From IMG/VR virus record IMGVR_UViG_3300023104_000012, positions 1 to 40,176 of that record: a stretch of 40,176 nt of DNA. One strand, given 5' to 3'. Below, piece by piece: positions 1,829 to 38,337 of this stretch. A program made the translations under genes and the position numbers. This DNA is from a virus (Duplodnaviria; Caudoviricetes). The notes below the pieces were generated by a model. That model was not told the origin of the DNA. It saw only the letters and a program-made list of their open reading frames with translations, and made no database searches. Within the stretch, counting starts at the first letter, position 1; every line of letters begins with the position of its first letter.

Positions 1829-1856
1829 TTGCAATACGGAAAATGCACGGTATTGT
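1829..1856 (+). promoter_or_regulatory. promoter with overlapping inverted-repeat operator in divergent control region
   Basis: TTGCAA-16-TATTGT; palindrome CAATAC-12-GTATTG (1832-1855). Confidence 0.5.
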
Positions 1857-3244: not shown

Positions 3245-3595
3245 ATGTTCGCTCTTGAGCTTCCTTGGCCGAACAAGAACCTTAGTCCGAACGCTCGCCC
3301 GCATTGGGCAGTCAAGGCTAAGGCCGCTAAGGGGGCGAACCAAGTGGCGTACTATGTAGCCCGCACGAAACTGCCTATTAAGCCTCAGTGGCTCTCTGCG
3401 CGGCTGGAATGGGCCTTCCATCCCAAGACGGCGCATGCTTTGGACCTCGATAACTGCATTGCCAGTTGCAAGGCATACCAGGATGGCATTTCCATCGCCC
3501 TCGGCATTGACGATTCGAAGTTTGATACGTCCTACCGAATTGCAGAACCAGTGAAGGGCGGGAAGGTCGTTGTGACCATCTCACCACCTCTATGA
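3245..3595 (+). CDS. rusA: RusA-like Holliday junction resolvase
   Basis: LPWP..LSPN N-terminus, DLDN...K...DG...GIDD acidic motif. Confidence 0.8.
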   Translation: MFALELPWPNKNLSPNARPHWAVKAKAAKGANQVAYYVARTKLPIKPQWLSARLEWAFHPKTAHALDLDNCIASCKAYQDGISIALGIDDSKFDTSYRIAEPVKGGKVVVTISPPL

Positions 3596-3618
3596 CAAGC
3601 CGCTGAAAGGAGACGAGA

Positions 3619-3834
3619 ATGAGCGAACTAGAGAAGCGTAAGGCGTGGTTCACGTTCGATGGGGAGGAGGGGAATCTTTGGTATTTCGGCCTTCCTACAC
3701 ATGCTGTTGGGACGCTACAGCAGCGTGAGGTTCGAGCTATCATCGACATTGATGCTGATGGCTGTTTGGCAGGTGTAGAATTGATTGACGATATGCCGCC
3801 GCTCTTTCCACACAATCCAGAGAAGGAAGAATAG
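3619..3834 (+). CDS. DUF2283-like protein
   Basis: FD.E....Y ... IIDIDADGCLAGVELID. Confidence 0.65.
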   Translation: MSELEKRKAWFTFDGEEGNLWYFGLPTHAVGTLQQREVRAIIDIDADGCLAGVELIDDMPPLFPHNPEKEE

Positions 3835-3835
3835 A

Positions 3836-4033
3836 ATGGCAGACGAAATCAAGGATGCGGATTGGGATAAGGTCTATGAAGTGATTACGCAGGCGATCCA
3901 GGTGAAGCTAAAAAACAATGAACAGCTTTCAACGTCTGTGAACTGGAAGGAAGGCCAGCAGTGGGTTTACGACCTCGCCAGCCGTATTTCATACGATGTT
4001 CACCGCGTTCTGGACAAAGACTTCGACGCCTAA
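3836..4033 (+). CDS. hypothetical protein
   Basis: MADEIKD..., AAGGA RBS. Confidence 0.6.
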   Translation: MADEIKDADWDKVYEVITQAIQVKLKNNEQLSTSVNWKEGQQWVYDLASRISYDVHRVLDKDFDA

Positions 4034-4043
4034 CCAACAAATA

Positions 4044-4082
4044 GGCCCGGAGGCTGTTATAAGCTATCCGGGCCGTGTTTTG
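4044..4082. terminator. probable bidirectional terminator
   Basis: GGCCCGGA(4044-4051)/TCCGGGCC(4067-4074) stem with T-rich flanks on both strands, between convergent units. Confidence 0.55.
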
Positions 4083-4250
4083 TATCGATAGACAGGGCTT
4101 GATACCTGTTTCCCGTTTCCGTGAGGAGCTATCCGTCACGACACATTGGCTAACTTCCGTGTCTCGAAGCGAATACGTCGCAGTGACACGGCTCGGGGCT
4201 AACGTGCGCACGTCCTTCCGTGCTGCTATCCCTACTACAATAGCTCTACT
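4082..4250 (-). ncRNA. unidentified multi-branch structured RNA
   Basis: Closing helix 4126-4132/4240-4246; internal helices 4157-4163/4185-4191, 4196-4203/4225-4232, 4208-4212/4219-4223; GAAA tetraloop; 3' H-type pseudoknot. Confidence 0.5.
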
Positions 4251-4385
4251 GCTGTATTAGTGCAATGGCTTTGGATGGTGGGGAATGTGGGAAGCCCCGT
4301 TTTCCTCTCCGGGGCCACGAGATGCTGGATGGTTTCCAGCTACACCCGTATCTGACGCACGAAGTTCAGCCGTGATGTAAGGTAA

Positions 4386-4457
4386 TGGCGGGCATCCCTG
4401 GATTTGAACCAAGTCCGCACGGTTTTGGAGACCGGCGTGCGTCCAACGCGAACACCC
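4386..4457 (-). tRNA. tRNA-Trp(CCA)-like, 72 nt, aberrant D-arm
   Basis: GGGTGTT..CGGT-CTCCAAA-ACCG..CTTGG-TTCAAAT-CCAGG-GATGCCC-G-CCA; G73 discriminator, encoded CCA. Confidence 0.8.
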
Positions 4458-4462
4458 AATTC

Positions 4463-4532
4463 TGGAGCGGATCGTGAGACTTGAACTCACCTCATCAGCT
4501 TGGAAGGCTGAACTCGTCCCTGACGGACCCGC
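4463..4532 (-). tRNA. tRNA-Gly(TCC)-like, 70 nt, aberrant D-arm
   Basis: GCGGGTC..TCAGC-CTTCCAA-GCTGA..GTGAG-TTCAAGT-CTCAC-GATCCGC-T-CCA; G1-C72, C2-G71, U73. Confidence 0.85.
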
Positions 4533-4617
4533 GTTGCAAGGATAATATCTCAGGCTGGGGAAAGGTTCAAGGCCTCTGAAGCAATGAGGCCCGCCACGAA
4601 TGAACGGAGCGAGCCTC

Positions 4618-5136
4618 TTAGGAACGCATGATTTCGCGAAACTCAGCCATGAGCGGATCGTGTTCATGCTGCCACTCGTCATCCTGGGTTCGGAAGTCCT
4701 TATGTAACCAATCCCCTTTACCGCGATTACACGGGTCGCAGAGGACTTGTAGGTTGCCCAAGGACAGCCTGAGATGCCAAAACTTGCCAAGGGGCTTGAT
4801 GTGGTCAACCACTAGCCTAGATTCTTTTGGCGTAGCTCCGCAGGATGGGCATCGGTGTCCATCGCGCTCTAGGGCCTGCATTCGAAGTTTCGTCCATTCC
4901 CACGATGAATAGAATGTCTTCCGGTCATTCGGGCTGGGCGCAAATTTCTTTGGCTTTTGAACGGTTGTGGTTTTGACGGCTCGTGTTTTAGGCGTTGACC
5001 TCTTTGCAGACTTTTTAGGTGGGTTTGCTGCCAAGATCATTTTAGCTTCTTCACTCAACGGATTTAGCTGATTGGACCGACGATCGTTGAACCTTTGCTT
5101 GTCCCATGCGGTCTTGTCTCTAGCTGACCAACCCAT
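4618..5136 (-). CDS. HNH endonuclease with basic N-terminal extension
   Basis: FYSSWEWTKLRMQALERDGHRCPSCG...VDHIKP...NLQVLCDPCNRGKG. Confidence 0.9.
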   Translation of the reverse strand: MGWSARDKTAWDKQRFNDRRSNQLNPLSEEAKMILAANPPKKSAKRSTPKTRAVKTTTVQKPKKFAPSPNDRKTFYSSWEWTKLRMQALERDGHRCPSCGATPKESRLVVDHIKPLGKFWHLRLSLGNLQVLCDPCNRGKGDWLHKDFRTQDDEWQHEHDPLMAEFREIMRS

Positions 5137-5139
5137 TCT

Positions 5140-5618
5140 GTATCCCTTCTTACTTACTACCTAATCTGTCGCTGAGTTCAGGTCGGTTGCTGTTGGATAA
5201 GGACTGTCTTCCCCGTACCAAATGATACGAGGAGCAGTCCAATCCGGGTCCTAACTGTCGCTTGAGGCGAGGTTCGGCGCATGCGGATAAGCGTCAGGCG
5301 ATCATGCCTTGGCTCTAGGGAGTTGCTTCCAAGAGAATTGATCCTCTTGCTGACACCCCTCTCCCCTACGGACTGGGTTTGCGCCTTGTCAGTTCCCCCT
5401 GGTTGCGCAGACTACGTAGAGTGACCCAGTGGGCACACCATCAAACAGAGCAGCGCCATGCCGTCCGTCACAGGGGGAAACCCTGTCTCTACGGACCTAA
5501 AGGGGTGATATGTTGGGTAAGGGCTTGAACCAAACACTAGGTTTAGCTATTGTGCCTTTACCGAAGTGTTTCACCCACTCTCGGTCAATGGTCAGGGTCT
5601 GAGAAACCGCTGATCAAC
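5140..5618 (-). ncRNA. large ornate structured RNA upstream of HNH (unidentified; possible replication primer or HNH-associated RNA)
   Basis: No ORF of 60 aa or more; many nested and crossing helices; G-U pairs favour the minus strand. Confidence 0.6.
5525..5553 (+). promoter_or_regulatory. sigma70-like promoter of antisense sRNA
   Basis: TTGAAC-17-TATTGT. Confidence 0.6.
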
Positions 5619-5685
5619 ATCCGCATAATCGGCTCCCCCAGCCATTAAGTCAAGCCCGCCAGCCTCAAGCTCGGCGGGTTTTTCT
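5560..5685 (+). ncRNA. small antisense RNA (~125 nt)
   Basis: Promoter, hairpins 5560-5585 and 5589-5616 with 7-nt loops, small hairpin 5631-5643, terminator. Confidence 0.55.
5625..5653 (-). promoter_or_regulatory. promoter of the minus-strand island
   Basis: (C)TTGACT-17-GATTAT. Confidence 0.45.
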
Positions 5686-5686
5686 T
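5653..5686 (+). terminator. Rho-independent terminator
   Basis: GCCCGCCAGC-CTCAA-GCTCGGCGGG followed by TTTTTCTT. Confidence 0.8.
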
Positions 5687-5687
5687 G

Positions 5688-5716
5688 TTGCCAACACAAG
5701 GGACGTCGTTTACAGT
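5688..5716 (+). promoter_or_regulatory. promoter of replication operon
   Basis: TTGCCA-17-TACAGT. Confidence 0.6.
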
Positions 5717-6228: not shown

Positions 6229-6562
6229 CCCATATGAAGACGTGATAGAAGGGCAATCGAAGCTCATGGAGCGCTATGAGGAGGCGCTAAAGGCGATCTT
6301 CGATAACCCACACGAACTACCGCGCCAATGGGCGCTGTATGGGCTTACAGGCGGTTCTAAACCGGTTCTGAACGGTTCGGCCAATCGCAAGGATATTACT
6401 GCCGACCGCATCCGTGTGCTGGAGGAGCATATCAAGTTCATCATACAGAACGACCGTGATGATATCGTTGCGGACGGGGGCGTTACGGTATTCGATGCGT
6501 GGGCGCAGCAAGCTGCGTTTTTGATCACCAGCGTTCAAGGAGGGGGGAAGAATGAGCTTTGA
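6221..6562 (+). CDS. hypothetical protein
   Basis: MTSPYEDVIEG..., overlaps both neighbours. Confidence 0.6.
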   Translation: MTSPYEDVIEGQSKLMERYEEALKAIFDNPHELPRQWALYGLTGGSKPVLNGSANRKDITADRIRVLEEHIKFIIQNDRDDIVADGGVTVFDAWAQQAAFLITSVQGGGKNEL

Positions 6563-6905
6563 CCAATTCTGGGCATGTTTCCCGCGCCGCGTAGCCAAGC
6601 TCGCAGCCAAGAAGGCTTATGACAAGGCTCTAAAGCAAACCACTCACCAAGAGATAATGGCAGGCGTTGAGCGGTATGCCTTCCACACTCGCAACACCGA
6701 ACATCAGTTTATCAAACACCCTGCCTCATGGCTCAACGCGGGCTGCTGGGAGGATGAGTTGCAAGACCAGCGCACCATCATCCCAAGCCAAAACATGACC
6801 AACCTAGACCGCCTAGAGCAAGACCTAGCAGAGAGGATTAGAAATGGAACGCGAAGCCAAGGAAGCCTTGATCTTGCGTCTGTTCCGCGCCTATCCGGGC
6901 GCTGA
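6552..6905 (+). CDS. stand-alone C-terminal domain of a phage replication initiator
   Basis: FDQFWACFPRRVAKLAAKKAY...FIKHPASWLNAGCWEDE motif; own RBS; no N-terminal HTH. Confidence 0.75.
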   Translation: MSFDQFWACFPRRVAKLAAKKAYDKALKQTTHQEIMAGVERYAFHTRNTEHQFIKHPASWLNAGCWEDELQDQRTIIPSQNMTNLDRLEQDLAERIRNGTRSQGSLDLASVPRLSGR

Positions 6906-7425
6906 GAGCAAGGTTAGCCGCGCAACGGTCGATACGTATCTAGAGGCCGTGGATTATTACCCGTTCAATTTTGTCCGCATGGGTATTGAGCAGTTCATTA
7001 CCGGACAGGTTCCACGAGAGGCAAGGAACCGGGCATTCGTCCCAAGCTGCGACGAGCTATCAACCCACATTCGAGTAGTGCAGGCCAATGACGGCAAGGT
7101 GCAGCGGCTCCTAGAGGCAGGACGGCAGCAGTTCATCGCTCAGGACAAGGATGCAGAGGTAGAGCAATCCCGCACCCCGGAGGCGATGGCTAGGGTAAGG
7201 AGTATGATGGAGGGGTTTGTTGAATCCGTCGATCCAAAGCAGAAAACTCCAGCGGAAATCGCTAGGGCCAAAGAGGAAGCCAAGCGCCACGACGCCTTCT
7301 ATGCCAATGAGTTTGAGGAACGCATTCCCGGCATTAAGGTAAGTTCATACCTGATCAGTAAGCTACGATACGAGACGTTTAACAGCGCCGATGATGAGCG
7401 CTATGATGCGGGAGAGGATAGATGA
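6844..7425 (+). CDS. putative helicase loader / replication protein P-like
   Basis: Position after initiator; helical N-terminal domain ending AFVPSCDEL. Confidence 0.45.
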   Translation: MEREAKEALILRLFRAYPGAESKVSRATVDTYLEAVDYYPFNFVRMGIEQFITGQVPREARNRAFVPSCDELSTHIRVVQANDGKVQRLLEAGRQQFIAQDKDAEVEQSRTPEAMARVRSMMEGFVESVDPKQKTPAEIARAKEEAKRHDAFYANEFEERIPGIKVSSYLISKLRYETFNSADDERYDAGEDR

Positions 7426-7841: not shown

Positions 7842-8305
7842 GCGACACAAACGTATTCGTATGCACAGGCCGTCTAGGGCGTGACCCAGAATCTCGGACA
7901 TTTCAAGACGGACACAAGGTGGTGAACCTCAATCTGGCTGTGAGTGATCAATGGAAATCGAAAGACACGGGCGAGAAGCAAGAGCGCACCCTATGGCTCA
8001 ACGTATCCATCCAAAACCAGGGCATTGCCAAGGTAGCGGAACAATACCTCAAGAAGGGTAGCCGCGTTTCCATCTCAGGAAAGCTCCAATCCCGCGAGTA
8101 CGAGAAGGACGGACAGAATCATACGGTCATTGAACTGGTCATAAGTCCCTACGGAGGGTCACTGACCATGCTTGACGGCCCAAGTGGGGATAGCCAGCCA
8201 CGACAGCAGGAACGCCAGCCAGCGAGGCATATGGCGGCAGGCCCTAGCGGCGCATTCGGTTCCGATCCACTCGATGATATCCCCTTCGCTCCGGAGTGGC
8301 GCTAA
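7838..8305 (+). CDS. ssb: single-stranded DNA-binding protein
   Basis: GRLGRDPE...W....GE..E.T.W...YLKKGSRV...GKL; acidic tail DDIPF. Confidence 0.95.
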   Translation: MSDTNVFVCTGRLGRDPESRTFQDGHKVVNLNLAVSDQWKSKDTGEKQERTLWLNVSIQNQGIAKVAEQYLKKGSRVSISGKLQSREYEKDGQNHTVIELVISPYGGSLTMLDGPSGDSQPRQQERQPARHMAAGPSGAFGSDPLDDIPFAPEWR

Positions 8306-8898
8306 TGCTCTCCACGGTAGAAACCCATGAGTATCTAGCGCGCCGAGAACGGCTAGGAGTTTTCCAAGCCAAGCCGGTAGCTATCAAAAGGCGTGAATTA
8401 AAGACCGATCAACCGGAGCCGGTTTATGTCCCGATTGCAGAATCATTGAGCGATTCTATCGATGCTGAGAAGTGGAAGGGGGTTATGAGAGAAGTTTCGA
8501 ACAAGCACGGCATACCCCTCGAAACCATAAAATCAAAGTCGCGATCCAGAAAAACAACAATGGCGCGACATGAAATTTGTTACCGGCTAATTACGGAATT
8601 CAAAATGTCCTACCCCGCAGCGGCGCGGAAGCTAGGTTATGATAACCACACATCAGTGCTTCATGCCGTAGATAAATTTGCATCGCGTCATGGGCTTCCT
8701 CCAGTCATCCGCGCTCACATAGTAGTTCACGAAGGGAGGGACAAAGAAATGTATATCATGTGTCGGGGAGGAGCGACTTACAAAGAGGTTGGAGAGGCGT
8801 TCGGCCTATCTGTCCCGCATACGAATAACGTTTGCATCGAATATGCAAGGGCGAATGGCCTGCCTCATCCGCAAGCCAATAATGGCGGATCGTTCTAG
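8305..8898 (+). CDS. DnaA C-terminal (domain IV-like) HTH protein with second C-terminal HTH
   Basis: SKSRSRKTTMARHEICY...SYPAAARKLGYDNHTSVLHA; TYKEVGEAFGLS. Confidence 0.75.
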   Translation: MLSTVETHEYLARRERLGVFQAKPVAIKRRELKTDQPEPVYVPIAESLSDSIDAEKWKGVMREVSNKHGIPLETIKSKSRSRKTTMARHEICYRLITEFKMSYPAAARKLGYDNHTSVLHAVDKFASRHGLPPVIRAHIVVHEGRDKEMYIMCRGGATYKEVGEAFGLSVPHTNNVCIEYARANGLPHPQANNGGSF

Positions 8899-8956: not shown

Positions 8957-9187
8957 ATGAGCGTGGATTATCCGTCATTCTACCCAAAGGCCGATAACCT
9001 TTCGGAATATATCGTGCGCGCCGAGAAGAGCCCAGACGAAATCCGATGGCTCTATATCGATGCGGTTTTGGCCCTGATGAAGGGCAACAGATCAGCGACA
9101 GCGAGGCGGCTAGGGATGCATCGGAAAACGCTCCAGCGCATCATTTCCACCCATTCCCAAGCCCAACTAAACACAACGAGAGAGTAG
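8957..9187 (+). CDS. Fis-type HTH resembling the RegA/PrrA/ActR DNA-binding domain
   Basis: SPDEIRWLYI......GNRSATARRLGMHRKTLQRII. Confidence 0.8.
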   Translation: MSVDYPSFYPKADNLSEYIVRAEKSPDEIRWLYIDAVLALMKGNRSATARRLGMHRKTLQRIISTHSQAQLNTTRE

Positions 9188-9192
9188 AGCTA

Positions 9193-10396: not shown

Positions 10397-10998
10397 TGGC
10401 TACCGAATCCGAAATCGATCGTATTTTGACGGAGCTAGCAGACCTTGTCGAAGGCGACACGCTGGACGAGTTTCAGGCTACGGCGCTTCTGCAAGCCCAG
10501 ACAATTCTCCAATCCCTTCGCAGCCAAGCGGGGGAGAGTGAGGCAGTACTCAAGTGGGTACCCGTATATGCTGGGTCCATAGACTTGAAAGCCGAAACCG
10601 CTCTCGGTGGCTACACTATGAGCTTTGACGCCCCAACGGCAGGCGGAGCGGTTAATCTTTGGATGGCGGGTGCTGACGTTGATACCTTCCAGGTGTTCGA
10701 CACTCGAAAGGAAGCCGTGGCCGCCGCAGAGGCGGATTATCTCGCACGCTCCCTCGCCCGCCCCGCCCCCATTGAGATAACAGAGGATGCTCTAAATGAA
10801 GCCGTGACGGCAGAGTTATTGGCAGAGCATAGCGGTTGTGGACACGGGGTTCAGGTCGAGCAAGTCACCGCTAAACTAGCGCCTGGAGACGCCGTTTATG
10901 TGGTTAGGGGCAAACTTGGACAAGCACTGCTCTTGCCCAAGTCTAACAGGATCGAAACGCTTTATCGAGTGCCCGCCCTTCAAGGAGAGAAGAAGTGA
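10393..10998 (+). CDS. hypothetical protein
   Basis: 201 aa, coupled. Confidence 0.65.
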   Translation: MMATESEIDRILTELADLVEGDTLDEFQATALLQAQTILQSLRSQAGESEAVLKWVPVYAGSIDLKAETALGGYTMSFDAPTAGGAVNLWMAGADVDTFQVFDTRKEAVAAAEADYLARSLARPAPIEITEDALNEAVTAELLAEHSGCGHGVQVEQVTAKLAPGDAVYVVRGKLGQALLLPKSNRIETLYRVPALQGEKK

Positions 10999-11288
10999 GC
11001 GATGATCTGTTGGCATTGCTGAAGAAGCGAGTTGTCTGGTGGGAATCGAGCATCAGGAACAACCGAGAATATGATGTAACCGATTGCGACCTAGACGATA
11101 AACTGATTGAGAGGCTTAAGGCGGATGCAAATCTAATCCAGGAGATAGAAGGGTATTTAGAACTGATAGCCGAAATGGACGAGGTGGATGCCGCTCTAGA
11201 CCCAACGCATGCCATTAGGATTGCAGGCGCAGCAAGGCGGCTTATCCTCTCCAAAGCCAAATCCCAACAAGAAGGCGAGACAGAATGA
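10995..11288 (+). CDS. hypothetical protein
   Basis: 97 aa, coupled. Confidence 0.6.
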   Translation: MSDDLLALLKKRVVWWESSIRNNREYDVTDCDLDDKLIERLKADANLIQEIEGYLELIAEMDEVDAALDPTHAIRIAGAARRLILSKAKSQQEGETE

Positions 11289-11461
11289 GCGACATGGATA
11301 AGATGCTGTGTGAAGTGCGCGAAGAGTTGGAGCGTATGAACTCGAAAGGAAAACTAGCGGTTTGGGAAATGGCCGATGATCGCGGGTTGGAAATTGAGGA
11401 ATACGTCGAGCTGTTCAAACACGTGTTATCTAAGTTGGACATACCTCCAAAGCCCACTTGA
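11285..11461 (+). CDS. hypothetical protein
   Basis: Manual translation MSDMDKMLCEVREELER..., 58 aa, ATGA-coupled. Confidence 0.6.
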   Translation: MSDMDKMLCEVREELERMNSKGKLAVWEMADDRGLEIEEYVELFKHVLSKLDIPPKPT

Positions 11462-35877: not shown

Positions 35878-36714
35878 ATGGTTGATCCAAAATCCATACT
35901 GCTGGCATTGGCTCGCCAACAAGCTCAAGACCTTAACCAATCCCCATTCTCCAGAGCCGTCAACTCCGATCTCAACCGAAACGCTAGTGCTGTGGCGAGC
36001 GCGCTTATGGCTCCTGGCAATGCGCTTCGTGGCGAATACAGCCAGACTGAAATTGAACCTAGTGGCTATGTTCGGCCATTCAGTGGCGGCCTTATGGATG
36101 CCGCCTCAAACATGGCTGGCGTTGTTTCTCTCGGGTCCGTTCCTATGGCTCGGCCTGTTGGCTCTCTAGGCATGGGCGGCGCTCCCCGGCCTCCACAGGC
36201 CATCTCTTTAACGCCTCAGCGCGTATCGGCCTTGGAAAAATGGATGGGAAATAGTCAGGTGAGGAATCCTGACGGTTCCCCCATGACTGTGTACCACGGG
36301 ACAGAGGGCAATTTCGACACTTTCCGCGTCCCTCGCGATGGGGCTGGAAACGAGAGAGCAGTTTATTTCTCTCCCGATCCCGCCGTGGCTTCCCAATATG
36401 CTGCGGGGAAGGGCAGCGTTATTCCTGCCTACGTCAAAGCAGAAAACCTCCTCACAATCGACATGAAGGGTGGAGCAACCGACGCTCTTGGTCGAAGCCG
36501 TGAAGCGATTGTGCGACAGGCCCGAGAAGCAGGATATGACGGTGTTCTGCTAAAGAACACGGGTGATGTCGGCGGCAATCAAGATCAGTACGCTGTATTT
36601 AATCCTGCGCAGATCAAATCCGCTATTGGGAATAGCGGTGCTTATAATCCGTCCGACCCGAACATTGTTCGACTCTCCGGAGTTCCGATTGTATCGGGTG
36701 AGAAGGATCGCTAA
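35878..36714 (+). CDS. ADP-ribosyltransferase-like (polyvalent-protein type) domain protein
   Basis: DG.P..VYHGT, YFSPD...AS.YA, GYDGV, QYAVFNPAQIKSAIGNSG.Y. Confidence 0.7.
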   Translation: MVDPKSILLALARQQAQDLNQSPFSRAVNSDLNRNASAVASALMAPGNALRGEYSQTEIEPSGYVRPFSGGLMDAASNMAGVVSLGSVPMARPVGSLGMGGAPRPPQAISLTPQRVSALEKWMGNSQVRNPDGSPMTVYHGTEGNFDTFRVPRDGAGNERAVYFSPDPAVASQYAAGKGSVIPAYVKAENLLTIDMKGGATDALGRSREAIVRQAREAGYDGVLLKNTGDVGGNQDQYAVFNPAQIKSAIGNSGAYNPSDPNIVRLSGVPIVSGEKDR

Positions 36715-37972: not shown

Positions 37973-38157
37973 TCTGTTGTCTCCTTCTCCGGGATTGCAA
38001 TTTTCTTTCGGCGCGCATCGGCCACGATATCCGCACAAATCGATATGCACTCATCACAGATCATGGCGTCTAAGCCAGCGACGATAGTTCGGACGTAATC
38101 CTGATGCTTCCCGCAAAAGCTGCAATGATGGTATTTCTTCTCTGCCTCCTCGCTCAT
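37969..38157 (-). CDS. stand-alone ClpX C4-type zinc-finger protein
   Basis: CSFCGK.Q..V..IVAG....ICDECI..C.DI. Confidence 0.9.
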
Positions 38158-38309
38158 TCTGCCTGCTCCTTCTTGTTAAAGTATGCTCTGAGGGCGATTA
38201 TGACGATATTAGCCTTGGTTCTGCTAACTCTCTCGGCCTCAAGCTCTAGATCACGCCGTAGATCGCTGGGGAGTCGAATATCCAACCTAGCGTCACTCTT
38301 CGAAATCAT
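38154..38309 (-). CDS. ribbon-helix-helix (CopG/Arc-like) protein
   Basis: Not in ORF track. [44 protein letters not shown]; GGAGG RBS. Confidence 0.75.
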
Positions 38310-38337
38310 TGTTTAGTCCCCTCCGGTTGTCAGCTAA

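What the first reader, a model, noticed from the sequence alone, without database searches (positions are those of the whole stretch)
4035..5686. Counter-oriented RNA island: long structured RNA, antisense RNA, HNH, odd tRNAs and further structured RNA
Seen: a ~1.65 kb block in an otherwise gene-dense plus-strand early region. Its only credible ORF is a minus-strand HNH, flanked by ~480 nt and ~580 nt of highly pairable non-coding sequence and bounded by a promoter (5625-5653) and a terminator (4044-4074). Inference: a single transcript processed into several RNAs, forming a system I cannot assign to a known family. Candidates are an RNA-primed replication origin under antisense control, or an HNH ribonucleoprotein.
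Basis: partly seen in the sequence, partly recalled or inferred. Interest (0 to 1): 0.88.

Follow-up and report, generated by a model that had tools for sequence, protein, structure and literature searches.

The report
Antisense-controlled RNA origin in phage
This phage island holds several independent small units rather than one transcript, and its core is a conserved, folded 480-base non-coding stretch with a predicted short antisense partner that likely starts phage DNA copying in place of the DNA-binding half missing from the nearby initiator protein, while the nuclease gene and the shrunken tRNA genes beside it are optional passengers.

Summary
In detail: an intact minus-strand HNH gene, 482 and 583 nt non-coding flanks that fold better than shuffles, two odd tRNAs, and promoter- and terminator-like ends. 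The single-transcript reading does not: four promoter motifs split the island, and relatives shuffle, invert or drop its parts. The core is a cassette at 5137-5686: a predicted 480-nt RNA with an embedded antisense promoter facing two 5' hairpins. Fifteen cassettes share this layout; hairpin 1 covaries (8 of 11 pairs). The geometry matches MRB plasmid RNA II/RNA I. The phage's initiator is only a C-terminal domain. In distant relatives one slot holds either this cassette (2 loci) or an HTH gene with iterons (4 loci). Best reading: an RNA-operated, antisense-controlled origin (0.6); nothing shows expression or replication. The HNH is optional: absent from 6 of 6 related islands, and often found without the RNA. 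An HNH ribonucleoprotein is unlikely. The tRNA-Gly with a 3-nt D-loop is a conserved family of its own (6 copies). This scan has noted the same kind of cassette on other phage DNA several times; my four literature searches found no paper on it.

The parts
5655..5686 (+). Hairpin plus U-tract, predicted terminator of the antisense RNA; abuts the -35 box of the long-RNA promoter on the other strand
   Evidence: sequence, fold, 79-88% conserved in L021, L022, L024
5625..5653 (-). Sigma-70-type promoter of the long RNA (TTGACT-17-GATTAT), predicted start near 5618
   Evidence: same boxes in L154 and L156, one change in L155
5137..5618 (-). Predicted long structured RNA (482 nt to the HNH start), the RNA II-like part
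   Evidence: z -3.8; 5 compensatory pairs in close variants against 0.46 expected; no conserved ORF among 7 cassettes
5590..5615 (-). 5' hairpin 1
   Evidence: 8 of 11 pairs change on both sides in 6 sequences, 0 of 500 shuffles
5560..5585 (-). 5' hairpin 2; its loop (5570-5577) is complementary to 5514-5520, a predicted alternative pairing
   Evidence: own pairing ranks 1 of 15 for the window
5525..5553 (+). Antisense promoter (TTGAAC-17-TATTGT) inside a third hairpin
   Evidence: an equivalent promoter in all 7 of 7 cassettes of the close group
5560..5686 (+). Predicted antisense RNA, about 127 nt, covering the first 58 nt of the long RNA
   Evidence: z -4.2; inferred from promoter and terminator, not observed
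4618..5136 (-). Free-standing HNH endonuclease, intact motif with two CxxC pairs; optional cargo
   Evidence: 13 synonymous and 8 non-synonymous differences in variants, none in the nuclease core
4586..4617 (-). Conserved hairpin between units; the HNH stop codon abuts it; in L151 and L152 it takes the terminator position for the antisense RNA
   Evidence: 95-100% identical in L022, L023, L024, L151
4542..4570 (-). Promoter of the tRNA unit (TTGAAC-17-TATTAT)
   Evidence: rank 2 of 350
4463..4532 (-). tRNA-Gly(TCC), 70 nt with CCA, 4-bp D-stem, 3-nt D-loop, no linker to the acceptor stem
4386..4457 (-). tRNA-Trp(CCA), 72 nt with CCA, same minimal D-arm, 1-nt linker
   Evidence: no second copy with this D-arm was sought
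4270..4347 (-). Two-hairpin trailer; hairpin 4324-4340 keeps two pairs by double changes in one variant
   Evidence: (4326/4338 and 4328/4336)
4237..4265 (-). Third minus-strand promoter (TTGCAC-17-TATTGT), the conserved 4234-4278 module
4087..4230 (-). Predicted small RNA of about 144 nt: closing stem, one conserved hairpin, variable middle, T-arm-like hairpin
   Evidence: shared with L151 and L020 with compensatory changes read by eye; no Rfam match
4044..4074 (-). Conserved terminator-like hairpin closing the island
6552..6905 (+). Replication initiator reduced to its C-terminal domain
   Evidence: residues 3-74 match positions 179-254 of 383 of phrog_270, E 1e-20; full-length relatives annotated as initiators
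6844..7425 (+). Likely helicase loader (P/G39P-like), weakly supported
   Evidence: position; weak fold matches to G39P-N and replication protein P in BFVD, E 0.017 and 0.22; no significant PDB match

Best explanation
The island is a string of separately promoted modules, and its core (5137-5686) is a conserved folded cassette predicted to make a 480-nt RNA and a short antisense RNA, which likely works as an RNA-operated replication origin in place of the DNA-binding half that the phage's initiator lacks. Shown: the promoter motifs, the covarying hairpins, the recurrence of the layout, the shortened initiator and the slot exchange in distant relatives. Inferred: host sigma-70 polymerase transcribes the long RNA; free RNA pairs the loop of hairpin 2 with the segment near +100 and folds into a form that hybridises to its template, opening the duplex and perhaps priming it; the shortened initiator and the downstream loader would then bring in the host helicase; the antisense RNA binds hairpins 1 and 2 by loop contacts, blocks that refolding and limits firing. 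The HNH is read from the same promoter but is an optional homing-type cargo gene. The tRNA-Gly/tRNA-Trp pair and the 144-nt RNA are independent small-RNA genes, likely aids against host tRNA depletion or defence.
For: Convergent promoters 56-71 nt apart in 7 of 7 cassettes of the close group; two 5' hairpins under the antisense span in 14 of 15 cassettes folded, L027 having one long and one short hairpin; hairpin 1 covariation; 5 compensatory pairs in close variants, 1 of 20000 simulations; four wobble-preserving changes in hairpin 5258-5270 that fit the minus strand. MRB origins have a 68-nt two-hairpin RNA I and an RNA II of at least 465 nt (PMC3035462). The cassette points away from the replication genes in the window and towards them in L151 and L152, and runs into a hairpin with no cargo ORF in L154 and L156, which fits an autonomous element. 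All 6 related islands lie near a short initiator or its alternative type; 4 of 4 cassette-plus-HNH records with an initiator match have short frames of 122-184 aa. Between the early-left genes and the tail of the repressor gene, L025, L112, L028 and L029 carry an HTH gene followed by two 18-22 nt repeats 24 nt apart, while L027 and L030 carry the cassette. HTH_36 is not found in 9 of 10 cassette-bearing records. No polymerase, primase, helicase or integrase among 83 window frames scanned with Pfam.
Against: No transcript, R-loop or replication activity is shown. The long-range helices of the predicted fold are broken by variants: 20 breaks among 51 changes, not fewer than chance (p 0.31), so only local hairpins are supported. 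The loop-to-downstream pairing is not better than cross pairs in L154, L155, L156 and L020, and its windows were chosen after seeing the data. The promoter-pair score alone is not specific: 6 of 48 late-region control tiles gave a pair, best 18.8, and its weights were set by hand after I had seen some of the sites. My scan found no convincing cassette near 8 more distant short initiators scanned (L158, L159, L161, L163-L165, L167, L168). G008 has a short initiator together with an HTH-iteron module, so a short initiator does not by itself imply an RNA origin. The window encodes other DNA-binding proteins that could recognise an origin (DnaA-C domain at 8296-8898, GapR, Fis-like HTH), and G013 has a weak HTH_36 match. 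The slot exchange was seen in distant phages, not in the window's own group. In most loci the cassette does lead into genes. The loader's identity is weak. The record is rated 95% complete.
Confidence: 0.6

Rival explanations
1. The cassette is an antisense-controlled leader (attenuator or immunity switch of the P4 CI or P1 C4 kind) that gates whichever gene follows it, here the HNH.
For: It ends at a ribosome-binding site in the window, L030, L032, L036, L106, L123, L128, L151 and L152; in L020, L032, L151 and L152 it heads the operon with the initiator; alternative pairing suits a switch.
Against: No cargo ORF follows it in L154 or L156; it faces away from the replication genes in the window; at least four different sequences follow the same 3' end in variants; L027 and L030 have their own repressor and cro-like genes; no Rfam match to any leader or antisense family.
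Confidence: 0.2
2. The long RNA is a trans-acting phage RNA (scaffold, sponge or counter-defence RNA) kept with other small RNA genes in a variable island, with no role in replication.
For: It neighbours tRNA-like and other small RNA genes in 5 of 6 related islands; orientation is free; the body differs widely between relatives.
Against: It does not explain the exchange with HTH-iteron modules or the link to short initiators; in L020 the small RNAs lie about 5 kb from the cassette.
Confidence: 0.12
3. The HNH and the upstream RNA form a ribonucleoprotein nuclease, as in HEARO/OMEGA systems.
For: The same kind of cassette lies directly before a related HNH in 7 other loci (L030, L032, L036, L128 by scan among 38; L037, L123, L106 by eye); the protein has a basic N-terminal region.
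Against: 0 of 6 related islands have the HNH; many HNH homologues follow a cro-like gene with no RNA (L109, L110, L112, L122, L027, L029); the protein has 172 aa and only an HNH domain; no HEARO match; no guide-like match to the own genome above chance.
Confidence: 0.05
4. The hairpins act at the DNA level (cruciform or single-strand origin signals) and the promoters only supply transcription.
For: Compensatory changes do not tell RNA from DNA; no RNA was observed.
Against: Changes that keep G-U pairs on one strand and the fixed promoter geometry fit RNA.
Confidence: 0.03

Closest known systems
MRB (marine RNA-based) plasmid origins, pB1067 type (PMC3035462; abstract, part 2 of Results and Discussion read)
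   Same: About 500-bp ORF-free unit; long RNA of at least 465 nt; short antisense RNA with two stem-loops over its 5' part; 5' module conserved while the body can diverge.
   Different: Here in a tailed phage; a shortened initiator and likely loader are kept; in the window the antisense RNA is predicted to run on to about 127 nt; no sequence comparison with MRB RNA I was made (its sequences are in figures and supplements that I did not see).
ColE1 RNA II / RNA I (PMC5043065; passages read)
   Same: Host-transcribed long RNA, antisense RNA against its 5' end, predicted refolding switch.
   Different: Antisense overlap about 58 nt against about 110; two hairpins, not three; no Rfam match; RNase H and Pol I dependence untested; phage-coded initiator remnant present.
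RNA-based prophage origins of cluster A mycobacteriophages (PMC7157519; passages read)
   Same: Phage non-coding RNA region that alternates with a Rep gene among relatives.
   Different: Those lie beside parABS and serve the prophage state only; no partition genes were found here, and an antisense partner is predicted.
Free-standing phage HNH endonucleases; SegB beside tRNA genes (PMC13096335; abstract only)
   Same: Optional nuclease gene next to tRNA genes; nearest solved structure is the HNH endonuclease 5h0m.
   Different: This HNH subfamily sits mainly in the replication or early-right region, not in tRNA clusters: 7 of the 143 HNH loci showed a tRNA call.
Non-canonical tRNAs with small D-loops, tRNA-Pyl and mitochondrial tRNA-Ser(UCN) (PMC7609411; passages read)
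   Same: Zero or one nucleotide between acceptor and D-stem, very small D-loop.
   Different: 3-nt loop keeping GG, normal T-loop, Gly and Trp anticodons and discriminators; found in phages.

Membership tests
MRB origin | ORF-free origin with two opposed, complementary transcription units | tested here: met
   promoter motifs and no conserved ORF; transcripts predicted, not observed
MRB origin | RNA I with two stem-loops, RNA II about 465 nt | tested here: met
   482 nt; the window's antisense RNA has a further terminator hairpin
MRB origin | Homology to the conserved 110-bp core, Vibrionaceae plasmid | not tested
   core sequence not retrieved; the element is in a phage of alphaproteobacterial type (GapR gene; host inferred)
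MRB origin | No Rep protein needed; RNA I represses replication | not testable with these tools
   needs a replicon assay; an initiator remnant is encoded
ColE1 origin | RNA I family sequence and three-stem structure | tested here: not met
   no Rfam match at E up to 10 (that Rfam holds this family is recalled); two hairpins overlap the long RNA
ColE1 origin | Persistent R-loop, RNase H processing, Pol I extension | not testable with these tools
   G-tracts occur in 13 of 14 cassettes or fewer by strict count and at no fixed place
HEARO / IscB (OMEGA) | RuvC plus HNH protein with PLMP and arginine-rich region | tested here: not met
   172 aa, HNH-type families only; definition from PMC9755519 passages
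HEARO / IscB (OMEGA) | 5' UTR matches HEARO RNA RF02033 | tested here: not met
C4 / P4 CI antisense RNAs | Match to the Rfam model | tested here: not met
   (presence of C4 models in Rfam is recalled)
Group I intron with HNH | Catalytic core interrupting a host gene | tested here: not met
   no Rfam match; flanks have their own promoters and recombine freely
Canonical tRNA | 7-bp acceptor, 5-bp T-stem with T-loop, 7-nt anticodon loop, CCA | tested here: met
Canonical tRNA | Two-nucleotide linker and a D-loop of about 8 nt | tested here: not met
   0 or 1 nt linker, 3-nt loop
Canonical tRNA | Charged and used in decoding | not testable with these tools
   Gly and Trp identity bases are present (identity rules recalled)
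Homing endonuclease | Intact nuclease, patchy presence at a fixed junction | tested here: met
Homing endonuclease | Cuts the allele that lacks it | not testable with these tools
   target unknown

The most novel reading that the evidence does not exclude
These phages have split the lambda O-type initiator: the origin-recognising half is either a small HTH protein with iterons or a structured RNA that opens its own DNA and directly recruits the remaining protein domain and helicase loader, a hybrid RNA-protein initiator; the HNH behind the cassette is a homing nuclease that drives this RNA origin into the slot held by rival origins.
Probability: 0.25. Interest if true: 0.9.

Novelty: new variant of a known kind. 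Interest (0 to 1): 0.72.

Why it matters
RNA-operated origins are known from two plasmid families and from some mycobacterial prophages. A version that is interchangeable with a protein-iteron module, and that works beside a shortened initiator, would explain how many small tailed phages with no recognisable origin-binding protein copy their DNA, and would give a large natural set of antisense-specific replicons. The swap loci make a direct replicon test easy to design. The 70-nt tRNA-Gly with a 3-nt D-loop is a conserved phage tRNA form that default gene finders miss.

Tried and rejected
Rfam at gathering and E up to 10: only tRNA-type matches. blastn against 50,697 phage records: 66 records, all 40 listed matching only the tRNA parts. 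HNH-based locus search by single protein: 18 loci, none sharing the flanks. Genome scan with the initiator alignment: 0 of 601 candidates confirmed. Sequencing runs: no RNA holder listed among 24 runs, and run X23 laid nothing; no evidence either way. Complex prediction of initiator domain with loader: no answer, neither support nor evidence against. Fold search of the loader model in PDB: no match at E up to 0.001; lambda P appeared at E 2.9. Initiator domain against PDB sequences: none. Small toxic peptide in the cassette: no ORF shared across 7 cassettes. Cumulative GC skew follows gene direction and does not locate an origin. A purine-rich 3' end as unwinding element: not universal (0.33 to 0.75). 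RNAalifold of three distant cassettes was too poorly aligned to use. One processed transcript: rejected for the reasons above. Duplicates dropped from counts: L105 and L019 (the window itself), L131 (= L037), L136 (= L038), L177 (= L020 region), L152-L157, L175, L176, L178 (same contigs as L020-L024, L151).

Full report
Setting. The window is a whole 40-kb virus record rated 95% complete, with terminase, portal and major head genes of a podovirus type and a GapR gene that points to an alphaproteobacterial host (host inferred). Among 83 frames scanned with Pfam there is no polymerase, primase, helicase, integrase or partition protein. The island lies on the minus strand inside a plus-strand early region, about 900 nt before a 117-aa protein that matches only the C-terminal part of phage replication initiators (positions 179-254 of 383) and a 193-aa partner whose predicted fold weakly resembles G39P and P-type loaders (no significant PDB match).

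The HNH frame is intact, both flanks fold better than 100 of 100 shuffles, and two tRNA-shaped genes with CCA ends are present. Rfam offers nothing else.

The island is modular. Relatives found through the initiator and short DNA patterns give six islands: L020, L021, L022, L023, L024 and L151. None has the HNH. They share short pieces with the window: 4028-4076, 4234-4278, 4569-4619, the tRNA-Gly, 5514-5596 and 5592-5694. Three of these pieces are promoters or carry one. With a hand-set sigma-70 score, sites at 4570 (-), 5688 (+), 5525 (+), 5653 (-) and 4265 (-) rank 2, 5, 6, 7 and 11 of 350 in the genome; the weights were chosen after I had seen some sites, so the ranks are indicative. The island is therefore better read as four units than as one processed transcript. 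Contigs of related phages in two runs of one study join the cassette's 3' end to at least four different sequences, and one joins 4077 to 5120, letters between not known.

The core cassette. All 7 cassettes of the close group have a forward promoter and a reverse promoter whose predicted starts lie 56-71 nt apart. The overlap holds two hairpins. Hairpin 1 keeps its pairing with double changes at 8 of 11 pairs in 6 sequences, 0 of 500 shuffles (the structure was drawn from these sequences). Close variants of the window's own cassette show 5 compensatory pairs against 0.46 expected (the difference tables were cut by the tool, 40 of 170 and 40 of 45 rows shown), and four wobble-keeping changes that fit the minus strand. 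The same variants break the long-range helices of the predicted fold (20 breaks of 51 changes, p 0.31), so the global fold is unsupported. The loop of hairpin 2 can pair with a segment near +100; own pairs beat cross pairs overall (p 5e-5) and rank 1 of 15 for the window, but not for L154-L156 or L020. In L151 and L152 the window-type cassette is inverted and faces the replication genes; in L154 and L156 a second type faces the same way as in the window and ends at the 4586-4617 hairpin with no cargo gene.

Distant loci. Of 38 HNH loci with strong matches and enough upstream DNA, 4 (L030, L032, L036, L128) have a promoter pair with the window's geometry, 436-481 nt before the start codon and 65-71 nt of overlap; L037, L123 and L106 show the same layout by eye. 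The score alone is weak, as 6 of 48 control tiles gave some pair; the case rests on geometry plus hairpins. Four of five records searched in this set have an initiator match, all in short frames of 122-184 aa. Many other homologues follow a cro-like gene directly. In those phages the slot between the early-left genes and the tail of the repressor gene holds either an HTH_36-type gene followed by two 18-22 nt repeats 24 nt apart and an AT-rich stretch (L025, L112, L028, L029) or the RNA cassette (L027, L030). HTH_36 was not found in 9 of 10 cassette records and was found in 3 of 5 records picked for comparison, three of them because they showed the gene. This exchange with a protein-iteron module is the strongest argument for an origin. 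Against it: G008 shows that a short initiator can go with a separate HTH gene, no convincing cassette was found near 8 more distant short initiators, and the window has other DNA-binding genes.

Mechanism. By analogy with MRB origins (68-nt two-hairpin RNA I, RNA II of at least 465 nt; PMC3035462) and ColE1 (PMC5043065), the long RNA would refold and hybridise to its template, the shortened initiator and loader would bring in the host helicase, and the antisense RNA would block the refolding. Every one of these steps is inferred. No RNA run holds the stretch, which says nothing either way.

The HNH. It is conserved under purifying selection (13 synonymous, 8 non-synonymous differences, none in the core), resembles a solved free-standing HNH and lacks the RuvC and other parts that define HEARO/IscB. 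It recurs behind cassettes, so the link is not accidental, but each occurs without the other. A homing nuclease of the replication region, using the cassette's promoter, is the simplest reading.

The small RNAs. The tRNA-Gly has a 4-bp D-stem with a 3-nt loop and no linker. A pattern search found it in 4 viral loci and 1 alphaproteobacterial genome bin, in unrelated contexts without cassette or HNH except L155. Six copies keep acceptor, anticodon and T stems by double changes at 6 pairs, 0 of 500 shuffles; the D-arm and anticodon loop were fixed by the pattern, so their invariance is not evidence. The tRNA-Trp has the same design; relatives carry other tRNA look-alikes in this place. The 144-nt RNA at 4230-4087 has a tRNA-like frame shared with L151 and L020. 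A role against tRNA-targeting defence is a guess by analogy (PMC13096335, abstract); small D-loops are known from tRNA-Pyl (PMC7609411, passages).

Novelty. Four searches found no paper on an antisense-controlled RNA cassette paired with a shortened phage initiator, and one found none on this tRNA form; the library lacks most subscription papers, and I read no supplements, so MRB sequence data and preprint tables may bear on this. The nearest printed phage case is the mycobacterial prophage RNA origin (PMC7157519, passages). The scan's own unchecked notes describe this kind of cassette in at least seven other genomes; they are not counted as support. It works like an MRB or ColE1 origin by layout; it is not shown to be a member of either. 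Verdict: real, modular, new variant of a known kind; origin reading 0.6; interest 0.72.

Noticed in passing
L025:1181-1600, L112:434-900, L028:1218-1700, L029:1100-1560: Stand-alone HTH_36-type gene followed by exactly two iteron-like repeats 24 nt apart and an AT-rich stretch: a split lambda O-type initiator, with the C-terminal half encoded elsewhere at least in G008.
   Followed up: partly
L151:2574-2657, L152:2599-2682, L020:10545-10620, L179:1564-1641: tRNA look-alikes with normal T-arms but lengthened or altered anticodon arms, different in each phage.
   Followed up: partly
L020:10200-10680: A second small-RNA cluster inside the early genes, about 5 kb from the cassette, with the same promoter type and a tRNA-like element nested in the 144-nt RNA frame.
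   Followed up: partly
L154:2770-2830: A different RNA of about 65 nt with a closing stem behind the same third promoter.
   Followed up: no
window 3582-3627, 3804-3843, 9144-9189, 10507-10547, 10973-11009, 11246-11292: Short, near-identical linker sequences at gene junctions shared with L023 and L024, suggesting cassette-wise gene exchange across the early region.
   Followed up: no
window 6552-6905 versus L023:5779-6120, L024:5779-6120, L151:745-1218: Two unrelated-looking short initiator types alternate in front of the same loader gene.
   Followed up: no
L164:1870-2250, L165:3600-3960: ORF-free stretches of about 400 nt between a cro-like gene and a short initiator, with a different layout that my promoter-pair scan did not flag.
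   Followed up: no
L034:2230-2550, L107:2563-2990: Further non-coding stretches directly before related HNH genes, not matched by the scan.
   Followed up: no
window 35878-36714: ART-PolyVal (ADP-ribosyltransferase-like) domain protein after the lysis genes.
   Followed up: no
window 8296-8898: DnaA C-terminal HTH protein; a similar gene follows the short initiator in L032. Could bind host or phage origin boxes.
   Followed up: no
L037:3317-4030: RNA ligase gene between cassette-HNH and the short initiator.
   Followed up: no
window 1834-1843 and 38154-38316: Divergent early junctions with ribbon-helix-helix-type genes and no recognisable cI repressor or integrase; lifestyle unclear.
   Followed up: no
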